64,000 nt of DNA, taken from Octopus sinensis (lineage: Eukaryota). The notes under the pieces are model-generated. The model had not been told where the DNA came from. It saw nothing but the letters and a program-made list of their open reading frames with translations, and made no database searches. The DNA is taken from assembly GCF_006345805.1 (NCBI RefSeq), contig NC_043011.1:13838464-13902463 (forward strand). Direction: 5' to 3'. The number at the start of each line of letters is the position of its first letter. The stretch's first letter is position 1. The translations under genes and the position numbers were made by a program. Below are positions 20,201 to 29,200 of this stretch, in pieces.

Positions 20201-23200
20201 TCACGGAGTGGTTGGCATTAGGAAGGGCATCCAGCTGTAGAAACATTGCCAAATCAGACTAGAGCCTGGTGCAGCCTCCGTGGCTTACCAGACCCCGGTC
20301 GAACCGTCCAACCTATGCTAACATGGAAAACGGACATTAAATGATGATGATGATCCAATTAGCATGGTACTAAACAATATTAGTCAGTGAGGATAATAAA
20401 CAATAGGATTAACCAAACATTAGTAGTATTAACAAGATCAACAAACACTAATAGTGGTTTTTATAGAGAAAGTCAGAGTAAACAGAAATACAAACTTTTT
20501 TCTTGACTATCTTTGTCAAGAGAATTAGTAAGCCAAGGATTGTTATGGTTCACTTTGTTGACCATCACTGCATGTATTCGTGGAACCAGAGATGGTGGTG
20601 GTAAATGTTGTTCAACAGCTGTAGAATTCATTCCTTCTTCAATGTCACCTGAGCTAAAAATACAGCAAAGGAGAAGTTGAAAGATCTATTATGGAAAAGC
20701 AAAAGAATTTCTGCCGGAAAATACAGGAAAAAGAAAAAAAAACCAACAAGTAAAAAAGAAAAAAAAACAAACGCAGGAGTGGCTGTGTGGTAAGTAGCTT
20801 GTTTACCAACCACATGGTTCCGGGTTCAGTCCCACTGCGTGGCACCTTGGGCAAGTGTCTTCTACTATAGCCTCGGGCCGACCAAAGCCTTGTGAGTGGA
20901 TTTGGTAGACAGAAACTGAAAGAAGCCCGTCGTATATATGTATATATATATATATGTGTGTGTGTGTTTGTCCCCCTAGCATTGCTTGACAACCGATGCT
21001 GGTGTGTTTATGTCCCTGTCACTTAGTGGTTCGGCAAAAGAGACCGATAGAATAAGTACTGGGCTTACAAAGAATAAGTCCTGAGGTCGATTTGCTCGAC
21101 TAAAGGCGGTGCTCCAGCATGGCCGCAGTCAAATGACTGAAACAAGTAAAAGAGAGAGTAAAGAGTAAACGACTTACAAGTCTGATGAATCAGCTACCAT
21201 GGAAGGGTCTATAGATAATATACCTATCACTTCAAGCATATCATTTACTTTCAAGGTTTCAATTTTGTCATAAATCTACAAAAAATGCAAATATTTAGTT
21301 TATTAGGTTGTAAAGAAAATGTAACCAAAAATGTCGCAAGCATCAAATTCTGCCAGCATTCGAAAAACAAAAACACAAATCTCTCCCAATTGTATTTAAC
21401 AAGCTCCATCATGTTTTGAGGGGAAAAAAGCAACAAACACACACATTTACCCAAAGTTAATTTTGCTGAGTGGTTTATAATCCATATATTGTCTCATCCT
21501 ATTCCATTCAATATGTGTCTTTATTTAACTATCGTTATGAGCTAGTGTCTTCTGTTAAATTTTTATGTTATTTACCAAAGAAGGCAGGGACTTATATAAT
21601 AGTATAATTAGATTTATATTATTATGTAAATAAATCAAAAAGTTTAGAATAAAGAACAAAATTCATTACAATTTAAATTTTAAATAAAATACTAATTTCA
21701 TTCATTCACCCTAGTAGTAAAACTAATATCTTATTTCCAATTTAAATTGTAAGGAATTTTGTTCCTTGTGCTAAATTTATTTATAGGCGCAGGAGTGGCT
21801 GTGTGGTAAGTAGCTTGCTAACCAAGCACATGGTTCCGGGTTCAGTCCCACTGCGTGGCACCTTGGGCAAGTGTCTTCTACTATAGCCTCGGGCCGACCA
21901 AAGCCTTGTGAGTGGATTTGGTAGACGGAAACTGAAAGAAGCCCGTTGTATATATGTATATATATATATATGTGTGTGTGTATGTGTGTTTCTGTGTTTG
22001 TCCTCCTAGCATTGCTTGACAACCGATGCTGGTGTGTTTATGTCCCCGTCACTTAGCGGTTCGGCAAAAGAGACCGATAAAATAAGTACTGGGCTTACAA
22101 AGAATAAGTCCTGGGGTCGATTTGCTCGACTAAAGGCGGTGCTCCAGCATGGCCGCATTCAAATGACTGAAACAAGTAAAAGAGTATACACAATTATATA
22201 TGTATGTGCATGTGTGTGTGCATGTACATACCAAGTAATTGAAGATATTCAACAAAACATCTACTATATAAATGTGAGGGTATGTGGTTATGTATATATG
22301 CGTTTAGCCCCTAAAGGCCCTGAAATGGTACATCCTCAAAAAAAATGAATTTTGATTTTCTAAATCTGTGTCCCAAAGAAGTTGTCCGTAAATAATAATC
22401 AAAACATAATTTTCTGTGAGAAATAACTTAACTTTTAGATTGACAAATCTCCCACTCTCTATATATCATCACGTTTTCTCTCTTTTATGCTTTCCCCCTC
22501 TCTATATATTTACCACATTCTTTATCACTCTTTTTGTATATAAAATAATAATAATGAAATTATTGTATACAGTGCTCAGGTGCACCACAACTTGTCAAAA
22601 AGTGCATATAAAGCATATGCAGTAATGTACAAATGTCTGGAAAGCGAACAGTGTATGAGTCAGATACATGCTTGTGTGTGTATGGAGGGGAGAAAATCAG
22701 GTGTAGTGTTGGAAAATATCAGGAAGCATGGAAGTTTTGAAAGATGCAGTGCTCCGACAACTAACAACTGATGCCAGCAGTCTGTTCCATGCTTCAGCAA
22801 CTCTTAGCGTGAAAAAATGTTTCCGAAAGTCATGGGAGCTGTGCTGTTTTCTGACTTTATATACATGTCCACGGGTGTTAGACAGGTGGAGTTTGAAAAG
22901 GTGCTCAGAGTTATTGTTAGTAAGATGGTTAATAATTTTATGGGCGTCTGCCAAGTCAGTTGCCAGACGTCGGAGTTTCAATGTGTCCATGCCCCAGGGA
23001 AGTAAGGTGTTTTATTTCTCACACATTCTGTCCCCATCTCTCTTTTTTCATTACATAATTGCTTTCATTTTGTTTAAAACTTGTGTTATAATGTTTACTT
23101 CCATTTTATGATTGATAGCTATCACACAAAAAATGCTAGCTTCCAAATTCTGTTCTCAGATTGGGTAAAATATCAAACTTTAACCCATTAGTGTTTAAAC

Positions 23201-26200
23201 CGGCCCAAATATTCTACATGTTTTATATTCAAACTGGCAATATCTAGCCTCTCGCACCTGACCTACATTGACATTCTAAAAATAAACAATCACATCATTG
23301 AAACCTCAAAGCTATGAGACAATGCAGAATTAATTCAAAACAATTTGAGTAAAAAAAATATTACATGTAACAGAGTAATCTGAATACTAAAGGGCTAAAC
23401 TTCTCTACCATTTTTTTAAAACTTTTCTGGAATAAATGAATCACAAAATCGAATTCAGCATGAAAAAGTACATCAATATACAAAATTTGAAAATTATTTC
23501 AACATCTGTGACAATAGAAAAGATCTCTCTAGTTGTCTATCTCTTTCATTTTTCACTCAGTAAACTTTCCCCTTTCTATATACGTTTACCACTCTCTCTC
23601 TCACTGTCTGTACACATATATTGCTCACACTGAGTGTATGTGTGTGTTTATGCATACATGTAAGGAATTTTATTAGGGCAACAGTGATTTAAAAAGAGTA
23701 TGTGAAAGATAATCTATTTTAATATCATACTTTTCTGTTGGTATGTTTTTTCCTTACACACATACACTCACTTTGTGCAGGGTGGGAGTAAAAAAAAAAA
23801 AAAAAAAGAAAATTACAAATCCTTATTTTGTTATTGCTAAAATCCCAGTATTTTCATAATTATAAAATAACCAGTAGCAACCTTAAGCTTGAAACAGTTA
23901 CATTTCTGCTCTATGATTAACACAATGTCCCCACTAATCTAATCTTGATAATGATTTTTTTGGAAAATATGTTTAAAATATATTTAACTTTACCTTAACT
24001 AAACATGCAGGACCAGTCTCACCTGGAAGAGGAAAGTTCAAATCAAGTGGAGAAGTAGTTGATATCTGGCCTGGAAAAAAAACAAAAAAAAACAAACATT
24101 ATTAACTCAGAGAGAAACCATTTAACAAAGTTCTTCCAAATTCGACTCTAAAAAGAATTAAAGTTTAAAACCTTCAGAGATATTTTGTCTGCTGCGTTTG
24201 TCTTCGGGATTCATTTCTGTGTCATGAGTATTTGTACATTCCATATCTTCAGCATCATCCACATCATCATGGGGTCTCTTCAGGGATCCACTAGCACTTG
24301 CACTAAGCTCAGAAGACACTGTGTTTTCCTTCTCAGCATATCCTTGGAAAGAGTTAAGTACTAAAAGCTTTCACACAGGGAAATTAGAAAAAAAATCACT
24401 CAAGCTTTGAGACATAATTTTCAATGTTTTTGTTTCATTTTTCTTATTTAGAACCATTTTCAGAAATGTCAGGTTATAGTTCTGATATTAGTTCTAAATA
24501 AAAAATTTAGAACAAGGAACAAAATTCCTTACAATTTAAATTGGAAATAAGATATTAGTTTTACTACTAGGGTGAATGAATGAAACTAATATTTTATTTA
24601 AAATTTAAATTGTAATGAATTTTGTTCTTTATTCTAAACTTCAGAAATTAGTTCTGATCACAAGTCAAAATACTGTGATAGTAAAAAGGGGTCCTATTCA
24701 AAGTATATCTCTAAACTTACAGTAGCCATCCTTGTCAACATGAAACCCTATCCAACCATAAGGTTAGCACTAAGGACAATTTGTAAAGATGAAAATAAGC
24801 AATGTCATATAGCAAAGTAGTGGCGGTGGTGTTGGTGGTTGGGGTCATTGAGAACTAACAACTTTATTAGAGAAAAATAAATGTAAACAAGTTGTTGGCT
24901 TGCGATTTAGAAATCGAAAGTGCATATTTTGTTATTTGTGTTGTTCGAAAAACTACGTAGATTTACAAACCTCCAGCATTAAGCTATATAACAGAAACAT
25001 TTTAATAAATAGCAGAACCTGTATTAGGTTAAACCTGTCTTTTACAGAACCAAATTAGATTAAAAGAACATTCACTTCTATTCTGGTAGGACAGATATTA
25101 AAGACTTTTACTACAAAGAATAGAATTTATAGAATAATCAGAAAAAGTTATTTAGGTCATAAAATCGTAGATCAATGGTAAAGGATATTTTTTTCACCCA
25201 TTGTGTCTCGGCTGGAATTGGAATACAGTAAAGGGTTTGCCGGTCAAGCATCACAATTTGATTACTATCAGTTATAATTTCTTCGGGCTAAAACAAAAAT
25301 ATAACATATATAAAAGTTTCTATCAAATATTTTAATAACTAGCACGATGACCTGGCAACGCCGGGTCATAGTGCTAGTGCATGCATATACAGCTGCGTGC
25401 GTGCGCACATACATGTGAGTACTGTCCAAATCTCTGACCAATCACATACAGCTAGCTGGCATTCAATTGGCATATCAAGTTTTGGGCATATTGATTGGGT
25501 TTTGAATAGAAAATTCACAAAAAAGTCACTTCTATTGTTTTTTTAATGGCTTTGTGGGGTGACTGGGGAAATGTAAAGATGTGCACGACCACCCTTGGAT
25601 GGTTTTCAATGACCATAGAAAGTGCGAGCCTCAAACTGAAAAATTGTGGATTTGTATAAAGAACACACACACAGACATTTTGCTGTTTATATATATAGAG
25701 ATATAATAATAATTATAATGAAGTTATTATGTATAGTGTTCAGGTGCACTACAACTCATCAAAGGTGCATGTACAGTGCATAGAATTATGTACAAAAGTC
25801 AGGAAAGTTAACAGTGTATGAGTCATGATACACATGTGTGCATGCGTATGGGGCGGGATATCAGGTGTAGTGTTGGTGAATTTCAGGAAGCATGGCAGTT
25901 TTAAAGGCTGCAATGTCTCAGCAACTAACAACTGATGCAGGTAGTTTGTTCCATGCTTCAGCAACTCTGAGTATGAAAAAATGTTACCGAAAGTCATGGG
26001 AGCTGTGCTGTTTTCTTTGTAGACGTGCCCACATGTTAGGCACATGGAGCTCAAAAAGATGCACAAGGTAGTTGTTGGCACAGTAGTTTAATAATTTTGT
26101 GTCAGAACTCCAATGTATCTAAGCCCAAGGAAGCAAGGCATTCAGAGTATGGAGGGTGTTCGCTTGGTTGCACGCCTCTGAACAGTTTCCAGGTCAATGT

Positions 26201-29200
26201 CCTGAGCAAGATAAGGGTTCCAGACTGGTGATGCAAATTCCAAGTGTGGCCACACCAAAACCATATACAGCCATAAATAGATAGCTGGAGAGTGGCTGAC
26301 AAAGGTCTTGCAGAGTGATGCCAAGACACCCTGGGCCTTCTTGACAGTTTTAGAGATGTGCTTTGTCCAGCGCAAATTGCTGCTGAGAGTAATGCTCAGG
26401 TCACGTTCACAAGAAAACTTCTTGATATTAGTGTTGTGGAGAGAGTATGTGGATGCTGGGTTTTTCCTTCCAAAATGTATGGTGGTGCACTTGTCCACAG
26501 CCAGCTTGTAATCCATTGTTGCATTGTGTCCAGGTCTAATTGCAGGAAAGATCTATAGTGTTCAGGATCTGTCCTTTTTATCTCAAGGTACAGCTTGATG
26601 TCATCTGCATATTTCAGCACTATGGCATTCTTTAAGTTAGCATCTATGTCATTAATGTATGCAACAAACAAAAGGGGACAAAGAACAGATCCTTGCAGTA
26701 CATCAGATGACATCTCATAAGGCGAAGAATGCTGTCCTAGAACCATGACTACCTTTTTTCAGTTGAGAATGAAGGACTCCAACCAGTTAAAAAGATCATC
26801 TTTCACACCCATTGCCGAGAGTTTTGCCATAAGTCTTTTGTATGGCACAGAATTAAAAGCTTTAGTAAAGTCAAGGTAAACAACATCTACCCTTAAGCCG
26901 CCATCAGTGACCCGGGTGACGTCTTCGAGAAACTCGATAAGTTGACCACAGCAGCTGGAGATAGGGATAAATCCAAATTGCGAGGGCTGAATAACTCTGT
27001 GAGAATTCCAGATGTTGCAGAGTGTTTCTCGCAATACAGCTAGTAAGACTGACTGGACGATAGTTGACAGGTGACATGCGGTCACATGTTTTGAACAGAG
27101 GAATGACACTAGCAGAATAGTTTAGCTCAAAAGGTTTCTTTGTGGCACATTAAAATATTCTCTTGTGATATAGGCTTCATGAATCTACAATATGGGTTTT
27201 GCAAAACATCTTTAGCAAGCACTACACTCAATAGTGACTTAACCCTTTAGTGTTTAAACTGGCCATATCTGGCCCAGATATTCTACATGCTTTATGTTCA
27301 AGCTGGTCAGATCTGGTCTCTCACACATAATCTACATTGACATTCTAAAAATAAACTATCACATCATTGAAACCTCAAAGCTATAAGATAATGCATGATT
27401 AATTAAAAACAATTTGAGTGAAAAAGTATTACATTTAACGGAGCAATCTGAACACTAAAGGGTTAAGCTCCATAATAGCTGTTTCTAACAGAGGAAATGA
27501 CAAAGGACCGAGATATTTAGCACAAGAAGACTTGTCCGACACAGCAGAATTGATACCAGTGCTGGTTTTGCATAAAAACACCCAGTACACTCTGTGGAGT
27601 GGTTGGCATTAGGAAGGGCATCCAGCCATAGGAACCATGTCAAAACAGACAATAGAGCCTGGTGCAGCTCCTGCCTTACCAGCTCCGATCAAACCACCCA
27701 ACCCATACCAGCATGGAAAACAGATGTATAATGATGATAATGATGAACAAGGCCTGCAATTTTGAGGGGAGGGGGGTTACTTGATACCAACAGCCTCGGT
27801 ATTTGACTGGTACTTTATTTTATTGACCCCGGAGGGACGAAAAGCAAAGATAACCTTGGAAGGATTTGAACTCAAATCAAGTTGTGTAATGTGCTAACTT
27901 ATTCAACATATTGCCCAAAACTTCAGAAGTGGGGGCTTTCATGCAATTATACATAATGATATTAGGCAATAAATACATTATAAATTGTCTCTGCTGATTG
28001 AACAAAAGAAAATCTTTTTAAAACTCACCTTGCATTCTGCCACATCACGATACATTCCACACTTAACAAATGTTTGTTTTGTGCAGGAGTCCTTTATTTT
28101 GTATGTCCCCATGTAAAATTCGGGATCAAACATATCTTGAACCATACATCGATAACGCACTAAAGAGTTGGGAATCAGGTCGTGAAGTGCTGTGGAGTTG
28201 ACAGATTTCACCTAAGAAAAAACAAAACATCCCATGTTCACATTGTACAAAGAAATTTTATAGGTGCAAGTGTGGAAAGAAGCTTGCTTCCCAACCACAT
28301 GGCACCTTGGCCTAACCAAAGCCTTGTGAGTGGATTTAGTAGACAGAAATTGAAAGAAACCCATTGTGTGTACATATATGTAATTGAAACAAATTAGAGT
28401 CAATAAGAAGGAGTACAGTTGGACATTTACCAATATTCCTTCAGCAACAACACACCCTGATAAACTCAGTGACTGCTACTAAATTCAGGCCACGACAGAC
28501 AGAGAGGATGCTCTTGACAATATTTACATAACACTTGAGGAAACACAACTACATCTCATAATGTAGGGAAACGTTTGGCTTTCATCAGTAGGTGCTGGTG
28601 CCATGTAAAAAGCAACCGGTACACTCTTTAAAGTGGTTGGCATTAGGAAGGGTGTCTAGCTGTAGAAACCAAACCAAAACAGACTCTGGAACATAGTGTG
28701 GCCTCTGGCCTTGCCAGTTCCTGTGAAGCCATCCTATGCATGGAAAATGGATATCAAATGTTGGATGATAATTTCTAATGTAATATGTTTCAATTAATTT
28801 TTTCTGAATAATCAACAAAAGAACTGTACATAAATACATGATGGAAAATTTTAATATAAACATGAAGATGAGAAATTTAAGTTTTGTATCATAGATCTAT
28901 AGGTAGTTTTCAGGTATGTTGTTATCAAAAAATTAATTTAATATTGTTTCAAGATCCTATTTAAAAAGAGAACTGTTTACAGTTATGAACATTCGTGGGT
29001 CTACTATATTGGAAAAACCCAAAGATGTGTGAAGCCATACAATCTCTGATAATTCTAATATAACACAGCCAAAACATCAATTCCATCAACCTTGCCAACC
29101 TATAATCATGCTCGCACAGGTGGGACAGAATTAGCTGAGGCAGATTTTCAGTGGCTGAATGTTCTTCTTGACACCTAACCTCACGGGTTACCATGTAAGA

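What the first reader, a model, noticed from the sequence alone, without database searches (positions are those of the whole stretch)
24344..25188. Minor-spliceosome intron in MCMBP with apparent rare AT-AA termini
Seen: exon 4 ends TGG GTG AAA AAA and is followed by ATATCCTTT with no usable GT; the far end reads TACTTAAC TCTTTCCAA|GGA TAT GCT. Cutting after AA keeps the frame; the AG one base later gives a frame that stops after 20 codons, and there is no in-frame AC at a usable distance from the branch site. Established: ATATCCTT plus a CCTTAAC-like branch site defines U12 introns, whose 3' end is set largely by branch-point distance; AT-AA ends are rare. Inference: automated annotation likely mis-models this gene, and AA/AG competition could create a productive versus NMD isoform pair. 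I recall vertebrate MCMBP being a minor-intron gene but cannot verify that here.
Basis: partly seen in the sequence, partly recalled or inferred. Interest (0 to 1): 0.75.

Follow-up and report, generated by a model that had tools for sequence, protein, structure and literature searches.

The report
Octopus MCMBP AT-AA minor intron
An intron in an octopus DNA-replication gene (MCMBP) is cut out at the rare ends AT and AA, most likely by the minor spliceosome; it is the octopus form of a known human minor intron, a real but known kind of variant that some gene-prediction pipelines get wrong.

Summary
Observation confirmed. The 845-nt intron 4 of octopus MCMBP (minus strand, 25188-24344) begins ATATCCTTT and ends TACTTAAC-TCTTTCCAA. 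Contigs of 4 of 4 putative RNA runs (3 studies) join 25189 to 24343. Contigs of 3 of 4 genomic-type runs span the T7 run without an indel; the fourth does not reach it. The T8/AT-AG refutation therefore fails. The intron sits where human MCMBP has its catalogued AT-AC minor intron, and all four minor snRNAs are in the genome. Of 36 metagenome orthologues, all have the AT donor; 27 acceptors could be called by frame: 24 AC, 2 AA (both clam-like), 1 AT. Two of four Octopus annotation sets mis-model the junction; RefSeq has it right. No AG isoform was seen, but contigs drop rare forms, so the AA/AG NMD switch is unsupported rather than excluded. AT-AA is a known subtype (1.1% of conserved animal minor introns). 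An earlier scan note reported this same intron lacking AC in another genome (unchecked). Verdict: real, well supported, modest interest.

The parts
25189..25287 (-). MCMBP coding exon 4 (33 codons, ends W-V-K-K, phase 0)
   Evidence: RefSeq O. sinensis protein P0122 residues 108-140 map exactly; covered by RNA contigs
24344..25188 (-). U12-type (A-class) intron 4, 845 nt, AT...AA
   Evidence: sequence; joint 24343^25189 in 4 of 4 putative RNA runs
25180..25188 (-). U12 5' splice site ATATCCTTT
   Evidence: predicted duplex with this genome's U11 (-6.5 kcal/mol) and U6atac (-6.3)
24353..24360 (-). U12 branch site TACTTAAC; inferred branch A at 24354, 11 nt from the intron end
   Evidence: predicted duplex with this genome's U12 (-5.9 kcal/mol); branch nucleotide not mapped
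24344..24346 (-). 3' splice site used: CAA
   Evidence: frame
24343..24344 (-). competing AG one base later (AAG, branch A at -12); frameshifting; not seen used
   Evidence: no such joint listed
24172..24343 (-). MCMBP coding exon 5 (starts G-Y-A-E-K-E)
24280..24282 (-). TGA that would end the AG-shifted frame, 108 nt upstream of the next junction
25196..25197 (-). exonic GT used as a false donor by two gene models
   Evidence: P0001 and P0126 both leave the true frame after Q-W
24368..24369 (-). intronic AG that explains the O. vulgaris model's inserted L-L-V-L-N-S-F-Q
   Evidence: window translation from 24367 equals the insert in P0001
24500..24641 (.). 142-nt palindromic, MITE-like insert inside the intron (not part of the splice signals)

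Best explanation
This is a real, constitutively removed intron of octopus MCMBP with AT-AA ends, most likely spliced by the minor (U12-dependent) spliceosome and likely derived from an ancestral AT-AC intron by a change of its last base. Shown: the ends, the spliced joint, the orthologous position of the human AT-AC intron, and the presence of U11, U12, U4atac and U6atac genes. Inferred: U11 and then U6atac read ATATCCTT; U12 reads TACTTAAC and bulges A24354; the cut falls on the A-N dinucleotide 11-13 nt from that A. Two candidates lie in that range, CAA (-11) and AAG (-12). CAA likely wins because it comes first, has a pyrimidine at -3, and lets the intron's first A face an A rather than a G. 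AG use is expected only as low-level splicing noise, which a premature stop would send to decay.
For: Joint 24343^25189 in 4 of 4 putative RNA runs from 3 studies, depth 33-229. T7 and acceptor unchanged in independent genomic-type contigs. RefSeq proteins read WVKK-GYAE. Human orthologue is AT_AC at W-V-K-E|A-Y and is retained on CENATAC depletion, PSI 0.058 to 0.43 (PMC8280824 supplement rows). Minor snRNAs over the Rfam cut-off in G000. 36 of 36 metagenome orthologues start ATATCCTT although the pattern allowed G. In the 27 with a called acceptor, 24 end AC, the branch A is at -11 to -13, and -3 is a pyrimidine in all 27. -3 is also a pyrimidine in 10 of 10 human U12 AT_AA rows. Passages: optimum distance 11-13 nt and AT-AG disfavoured (PMC3584512); first-last base pairing and -3 pyrimidine preference in the yeast P complex (10.1101/212811).
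Against: Dependence on the minor spliceosome was not tested in octopus, and the branch nucleotide is not mapped. The RNA label of the runs is the tool's guess, though the contigs join exons. The joint can slide by 2 bases. The -3 pyrimidine rule is not absolute: the human intron ends AAC. The 27 orthologue acceptors were called by reading frame and by eye near a branch motif, without RNA, so their distance range is partly circular; 9 of 36 could not be called. The A.A terminal pair is my extrapolation; the paper only models A.C.
Confidence: 0.92

Rival explanations
1. The AA and the adjacent AG are both used in a regulated way, giving a productive mRNA and an NMD-targeted one that tunes MCMBP levels.
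For: AG lies at -12 from the branch A, inside the 11-13 range; its frame stops 108 nt before the next junction. Two clam-like orthologues also have AA followed by G. NMD would hide the product. U12 3' site choice is described as error-prone (PMC3584512 passage).
Against: Only the AA joint is listed in 4 of 4 runs. All three RefSeq O. sinensis isoforms use AA. G follows 21 of 24 AC orthologues, so it needs no special explanation. AAG has a purine at -3, and AT-AG is described as disfavoured.
Confidence: 0.06
2. The terminal A is edited A-to-I in the pre-mRNA, so the spliceosome sees AI (read as AG) at the same position.
For: It would give the same mRNA joint. Heavy A-to-I editing in coleoid cephalopods and AA-to-AI acceptor creation by ADAR are recalled, not checked here. 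A whole-intron fold puts A24344 about 70% paired.
Against: Not needed: unedited AT-AA introns are catalogued in human. The same AA occurs in two clam-like contigs. No long duplex covers the site; the 142-nt inverted element starts 156 nt away. No T>C (+ strand) differences were listed in the RNA contigs, but none of them covered the intron's last bases.
Confidence: 0.02
3. Assembly error (T8 instead of T7, or a miscalled last base) hides an ordinary AT-AG or AT-AC intron.
For: A homopolymer adjoins the donor.
Against: No gap at the T run in contigs of X3, X4 and X6, and no change at the acceptor in 4 of 4 genomic-type runs. The RNA joint reads six A then GGATAT, i.e. K-K-G-Y rather than K-K-R-Y.
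Confidence: 0.005
4. The major spliceosome removes the intron at nearby GT-AG sites, as the O. vulgaris and UniRef O. bimaculoides models assume.
For: In-frame GT (25197) and AG (24368, 24332, 24329) sites exist.
Against: No such joint in 4 of 4 runs; these models break the W-x-K-x-x-Y register found in 53 of 126 proteins.
Confidence: 0.01

Closest known systems
Human MCMBP U12-type AT-AC intron (chr10:119853195-119857337; PMC8280824 supplement rows)
   Same: Same codon position and phase 0 (W-V-K-x|), same ATATCCTTT donor, CTTAAC branch site close to the end.
   Different: Ends AA instead of AC; 845 nt instead of about 4.1 kb; 9 instead of 12 nt between the branch motif and the end; an AG lies one base downstream.
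Non-canonical AT-AA U12-type introns (Sheth 2006 Tables 2-3; Larue and Roy 2023; human rows)
   Same: Same ends and signals. AC/AA differences between orthologues are documented (MSH3: human AT-AA, mouse AT-AC). AA followed by G occurs in 2 of 10 human U12 AT_AA rows (ABHD18, THOC2).
   Different: Only the gene and lineage. My searches of the held library found no paper naming this intron in a cephalopod; O. sinensis is among the species of Larue and Roy, whose per-intron data I could not see.
CENATAC-dependent A-type (AT-AN) minor introns (PMC8280824, passages)
   Same: AT-AN class; the human orthologue is a member.
   Different: CENATAC dependence not tested in octopus.

Membership tests
U12-type intron | 5' splice site RTATCCTT | tested here: met
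   ATATCCTTT at 25188-25180
U12-type intron | CCTTAAC-like branch site able to pair with U12 snRNA | tested here: met
   TACTTAAC, core CTTAAC intact, upstream bases differ from the recalled consensus; predicted duplex -5.9 kcal/mol with this genome's U12
U12-type intron | branch A 11-13 nt from the 3' end | tested here: met
   -11; range from PMC3584512 passage; branch base inferred
U12-type intron | no distinct polypyrimidine tract | tested here: inconclusive
   only 7 pyrimidines lie between branch motif and end, unlike the longer T-rich tracts of most other introns of the gene
U12-type intron | U11, U12, U4atac, U6atac present in the genome | tested here: met
   all four over the Rfam cut-off; their expression not tested
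U12-type intron | orthologous position to a known minor intron | tested here: met
   human MCMBP AT_AC row; protein register
U12-type intron | splicing depends on the minor spliceosome | not testable with these tools
   needs knock-down or antisense block
U12-type intron | intronIC/PWM score above threshold | not tested
   no intronIC or matrices on hand
AT-AA subtype | spliced in vivo at AT...AA | tested here: met
   4 of 4 runs; 2-base slide alternatives lack any splice signal
Regulated splicing-coupled NMD switch | unproductive isoform exists | tested here: inconclusive
   not listed; contigs drop rare variants and no raw-read run was offered
Regulated splicing-coupled NMD switch | premature stop more than 50 nt upstream of a junction | tested here: met
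   108 nt; the 50-nt rule is recalled and untested in molluscs
Regulated splicing-coupled NMD switch | decoy site conserved beyond coding constraint, or regulated | tested here: inconclusive
   AA|G in 2 clam-like orthologues, but G also follows 21 of 24 AC orthologues

The most novel reading that the evidence does not exclude
Molluscs have repeatedly turned, or have long kept, the ancient AT-AC minor intron of MCMBP as AT-AA|G (octopus plus two clam-like lineages), creating a one-base AA/AG choice in which any loss of minor-spliceosome precision frameshifts the mRNA into decay: a built-in fidelity sensor on a DNA-replication factor.
Probability: 0.06. Interest if true: 0.65.

Novelty: new member of a known kind. 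Interest (0 to 1): 0.3.

Why it matters
Modestly. It is a clean natural case of an A-type minor intron choosing AA over an AG one base away, both inside the allowed branch distance, so it can test how the first intron base, the -3 base and distance set the U12 3' end. The same intron ends AC, AA or AT in different animals, which makes a ready natural series. Practically, the junction is wrong in many public proteins: 32 of 126 read into the donor as I-S-F/L and 16 carry an L-N/L-K insert consistent with reading in from the acceptor side.

Tried and rejected
T8 homopolymer or miscalled base: rejected. Nearby GT-AG route: rejected as main route. Donor-acceptor pairing (the donor octamer is the exact reverse complement of 24345-24338): pairing probability 0.001 in a whole-intron fold, and not shared by L027 or L036, so treated as chance. 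No run on record as RNA and none with raw reads was listed, so isoform shares could not be measured; this is no evidence either way. A protein search with L027's exon after the intron found nothing at E <= 1. Dietrich 2001, Dietrich 2005 and Levine and Durbin 2001 are not held; I saw them only as citations. PMC11347168 and PMC7367187 passages gave nothing on this intron; their supplements and the intronIC/MIDB/IAOD databases, which may list it, were not seen. File 13 of the PMC8280824 supplements was not searched. Nine of 36 metagenome loci were dropped from the acceptor count because the contig ended or no candidate was found (L020, L021, L022, L024, L029, L033, L039, L041, L042).

Full report
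Gene and organism. The minus-strand gene is MCMBP. Exon 28211-28029 finds an Octopus vulgaris protein at 98% identity. The RefSeq O. sinensis protein in the same cluster (P0122) maps to the window in 15 exact blocks covering 611 of 614 residues; the three left over lie at exon borders. The window is therefore O. sinensis or a very close relative. A search with exon 4 gave one match in G000.

Observation. The sequence is as described. Intron 4 runs 25188-24344 (845 nt, phase 0), starts ATATCCTTT and ends TACTTAAC TCTTTCCAA. With the inferred branch A at 24354, AA ends at -11 and is in frame, AG ends at -12 and stops at codon 21, an in-frame AT ends at -17 and the first in-frame AC at -32. The joint chance of donor and branch motif at those places is about 3e-7 from window counts. 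The gene's other 13 coding-region introns start GT.

RNA and DNA evidence. No listed run was on record as RNA, and all were contigs. I laid 4 of the runs guessed to be RNA (X11, X12, X13, X19; 3 studies). All four show one joint, 24343 to 25189, skipping 845 nt with ends that read AT..AA on the gene strand; the same contigs continue into exons 3 and 7. The joint can slide two bases, but those cuts have no splice signal. I laid 4 further runs of genomic type from 4 studies, leaving out the two best holders as possible sources. X3, X4 and X6 span the T7 run without a gap, X8 does not reach it, and all four span the acceptor with no listed change. Contigs drop rare variants, so minor AG use is not excluded.

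Machinery. U12, U6atac, U11 and U4atac all score over the Rfam cut-off in G000. The donor is predicted to pair with this genome's U11 and U6atac 5' ends and the branch site with its U12. That is compatibility, not proof of use.

Orthologues. A supplement row of PMC8280824 lists human MCMBP with an AT_AC U12 intron at the same codon boundary, retained after CENATAC depletion (rows and passages seen, not the whole text). PMC7612377 mentions U12 intron retention in MCMBP in RNPC3 patients (one passage). A pattern scan of metagenome contigs returned 36 loci in 25 distinct donor groups; all 36 begin ATATCCTT although G was allowed. I could call an acceptor by frame in 27: 24 AC, 2 AA, 1 AT; by distinct group that is 15, 2 and 1 of 18. 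The two AA cases (L027, L036) align without gaps to Mya and Dreissena MCMBP at 72-80% when cut at AA, so they are probably heterodont clams; no RNA confirms them. A mis-modelled freshwater-mussel protein (P0010) reads L-N-F-A-Y before exon 5, which suggests an AC or AT end there (inference). AC is thus probably ancestral, and AA arose either more than once in molluscs or once with reversion; these data cannot tell which.

Why AA rather than AG (inferred). A review passage gives an optimum of 11-13 nt and says AT-AG appears disfavoured (PMC3584512). The yeast P-complex preprint shows the last intron base pairing with the first and a preference for a pyrimidine at -3, and models an A.C pair for minor introns (10.1101/212811, passages). 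Here the choice is CAA against AAG. A pyrimidine stands at -3 in all 27 called orthologues and in 10 of 10 human U12 AT_AA rows, two of which also have G next. Against a strict rule, the human MCMBP intron ends AAC, and my orthologue calls were made near a branch motif, so their spacing is partly by construction.

Annotation. RefSeq O. sinensis (3 isoforms) and RefSeq O. bimaculoides read WVKK-GYAE. The O. vulgaris model replaces VKK with LLVLNSFQ, and a UniRef O. bimaculoides model deletes eight residues. Across the 126 proteins then in hand, 53 have the intact W-x-K-x-x-Y register, 32 read into the donor as I-S-F/L, 16 carry an L-N/L-K insert, 10 are other and 15 lack the motif (a crude pattern count, mostly bird models). 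The I-S-F read-through also shows the AT donor in an oyster, a chimaera, reptiles and birds.

NMD idea. The AG product would carry a stop 108 nt before the next junction. It was not seen, and the G is the usual first base of exon 5 (21 of 24 AC orthologues), so nothing points to selection for a decoy. I give it 6%.

What is known. AT-AA minor introns are catalogued: 3 human and 4 mouse in Sheth 2006, including an AA/AC difference in MSH3 (tables), and 823, or 1.117%, of conserved animal minor introns in Larue and Roy 2023, where AT-AA is the commonest non-canonical type and both Octopus species were surveyed (passages and supplement rows). Searches for MCMBP + U12 + intron (2 papers), AT-AA + U12-type (10) and minor intron + cephalopod + U12 (0) showed no title or abstract on this intron; databases such as MIDB and IAOD could not be consulted and may list it. 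An earlier scan note (e1-7591371, unchecked) describes the same MCMBP intron lacking AC in another animal.

Verdict. Real and well supported; a new member of a known rare class, already modelled correctly at protein level by RefSeq. The new scraps are the AC/AA/AT variation of one ancient intron and the clean AA-over-AG choice. Interest 0.3.

Noticed in passing
window 24500-24641 and 21640-21781: A 142-nt palindromic, MITE-like element in intron 4 has a 97% inverted copy in intron 6; the pair flanks exons 5-6 and could form a long pre-mRNA duplex (possible editing substrate).
   Followed up: partly
window 25188-25181 and 24345-24338: [quoted passage not shown]
   Followed up: yes
G000, many contigs: 43 U6atac-like matches over the Rfam cut-off, against 5 for U11, 3 for U12 and 1 for U4atac; probably dispersed pseudogene copies.
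   Followed up: no
L027 (intron 1263 nt) and L036 (intron 394 nt): Clam-like MCMBP orthologues whose minor intron also appears to end AA followed by G.
   Followed up: partly
L016 and L019: Intron-poor MCMBP orthologues that keep this minor intron at only about 80 nt; L016 appears to end AT.
   Followed up: no
window 24171-24071: A 101-nt GT-AG intron with a weak donor (GTTTTA) follows exon 5; it is absent from the RNA contigs, and L027 seems to have an intron at a similar place.
   Followed up: partly
window about 25900-27100 and 22700-22950: Decayed LINE-like reverse-transcriptase fragments and many short interspersed repeats in the introns, judged by eye from the sequence.
   Followed up: no
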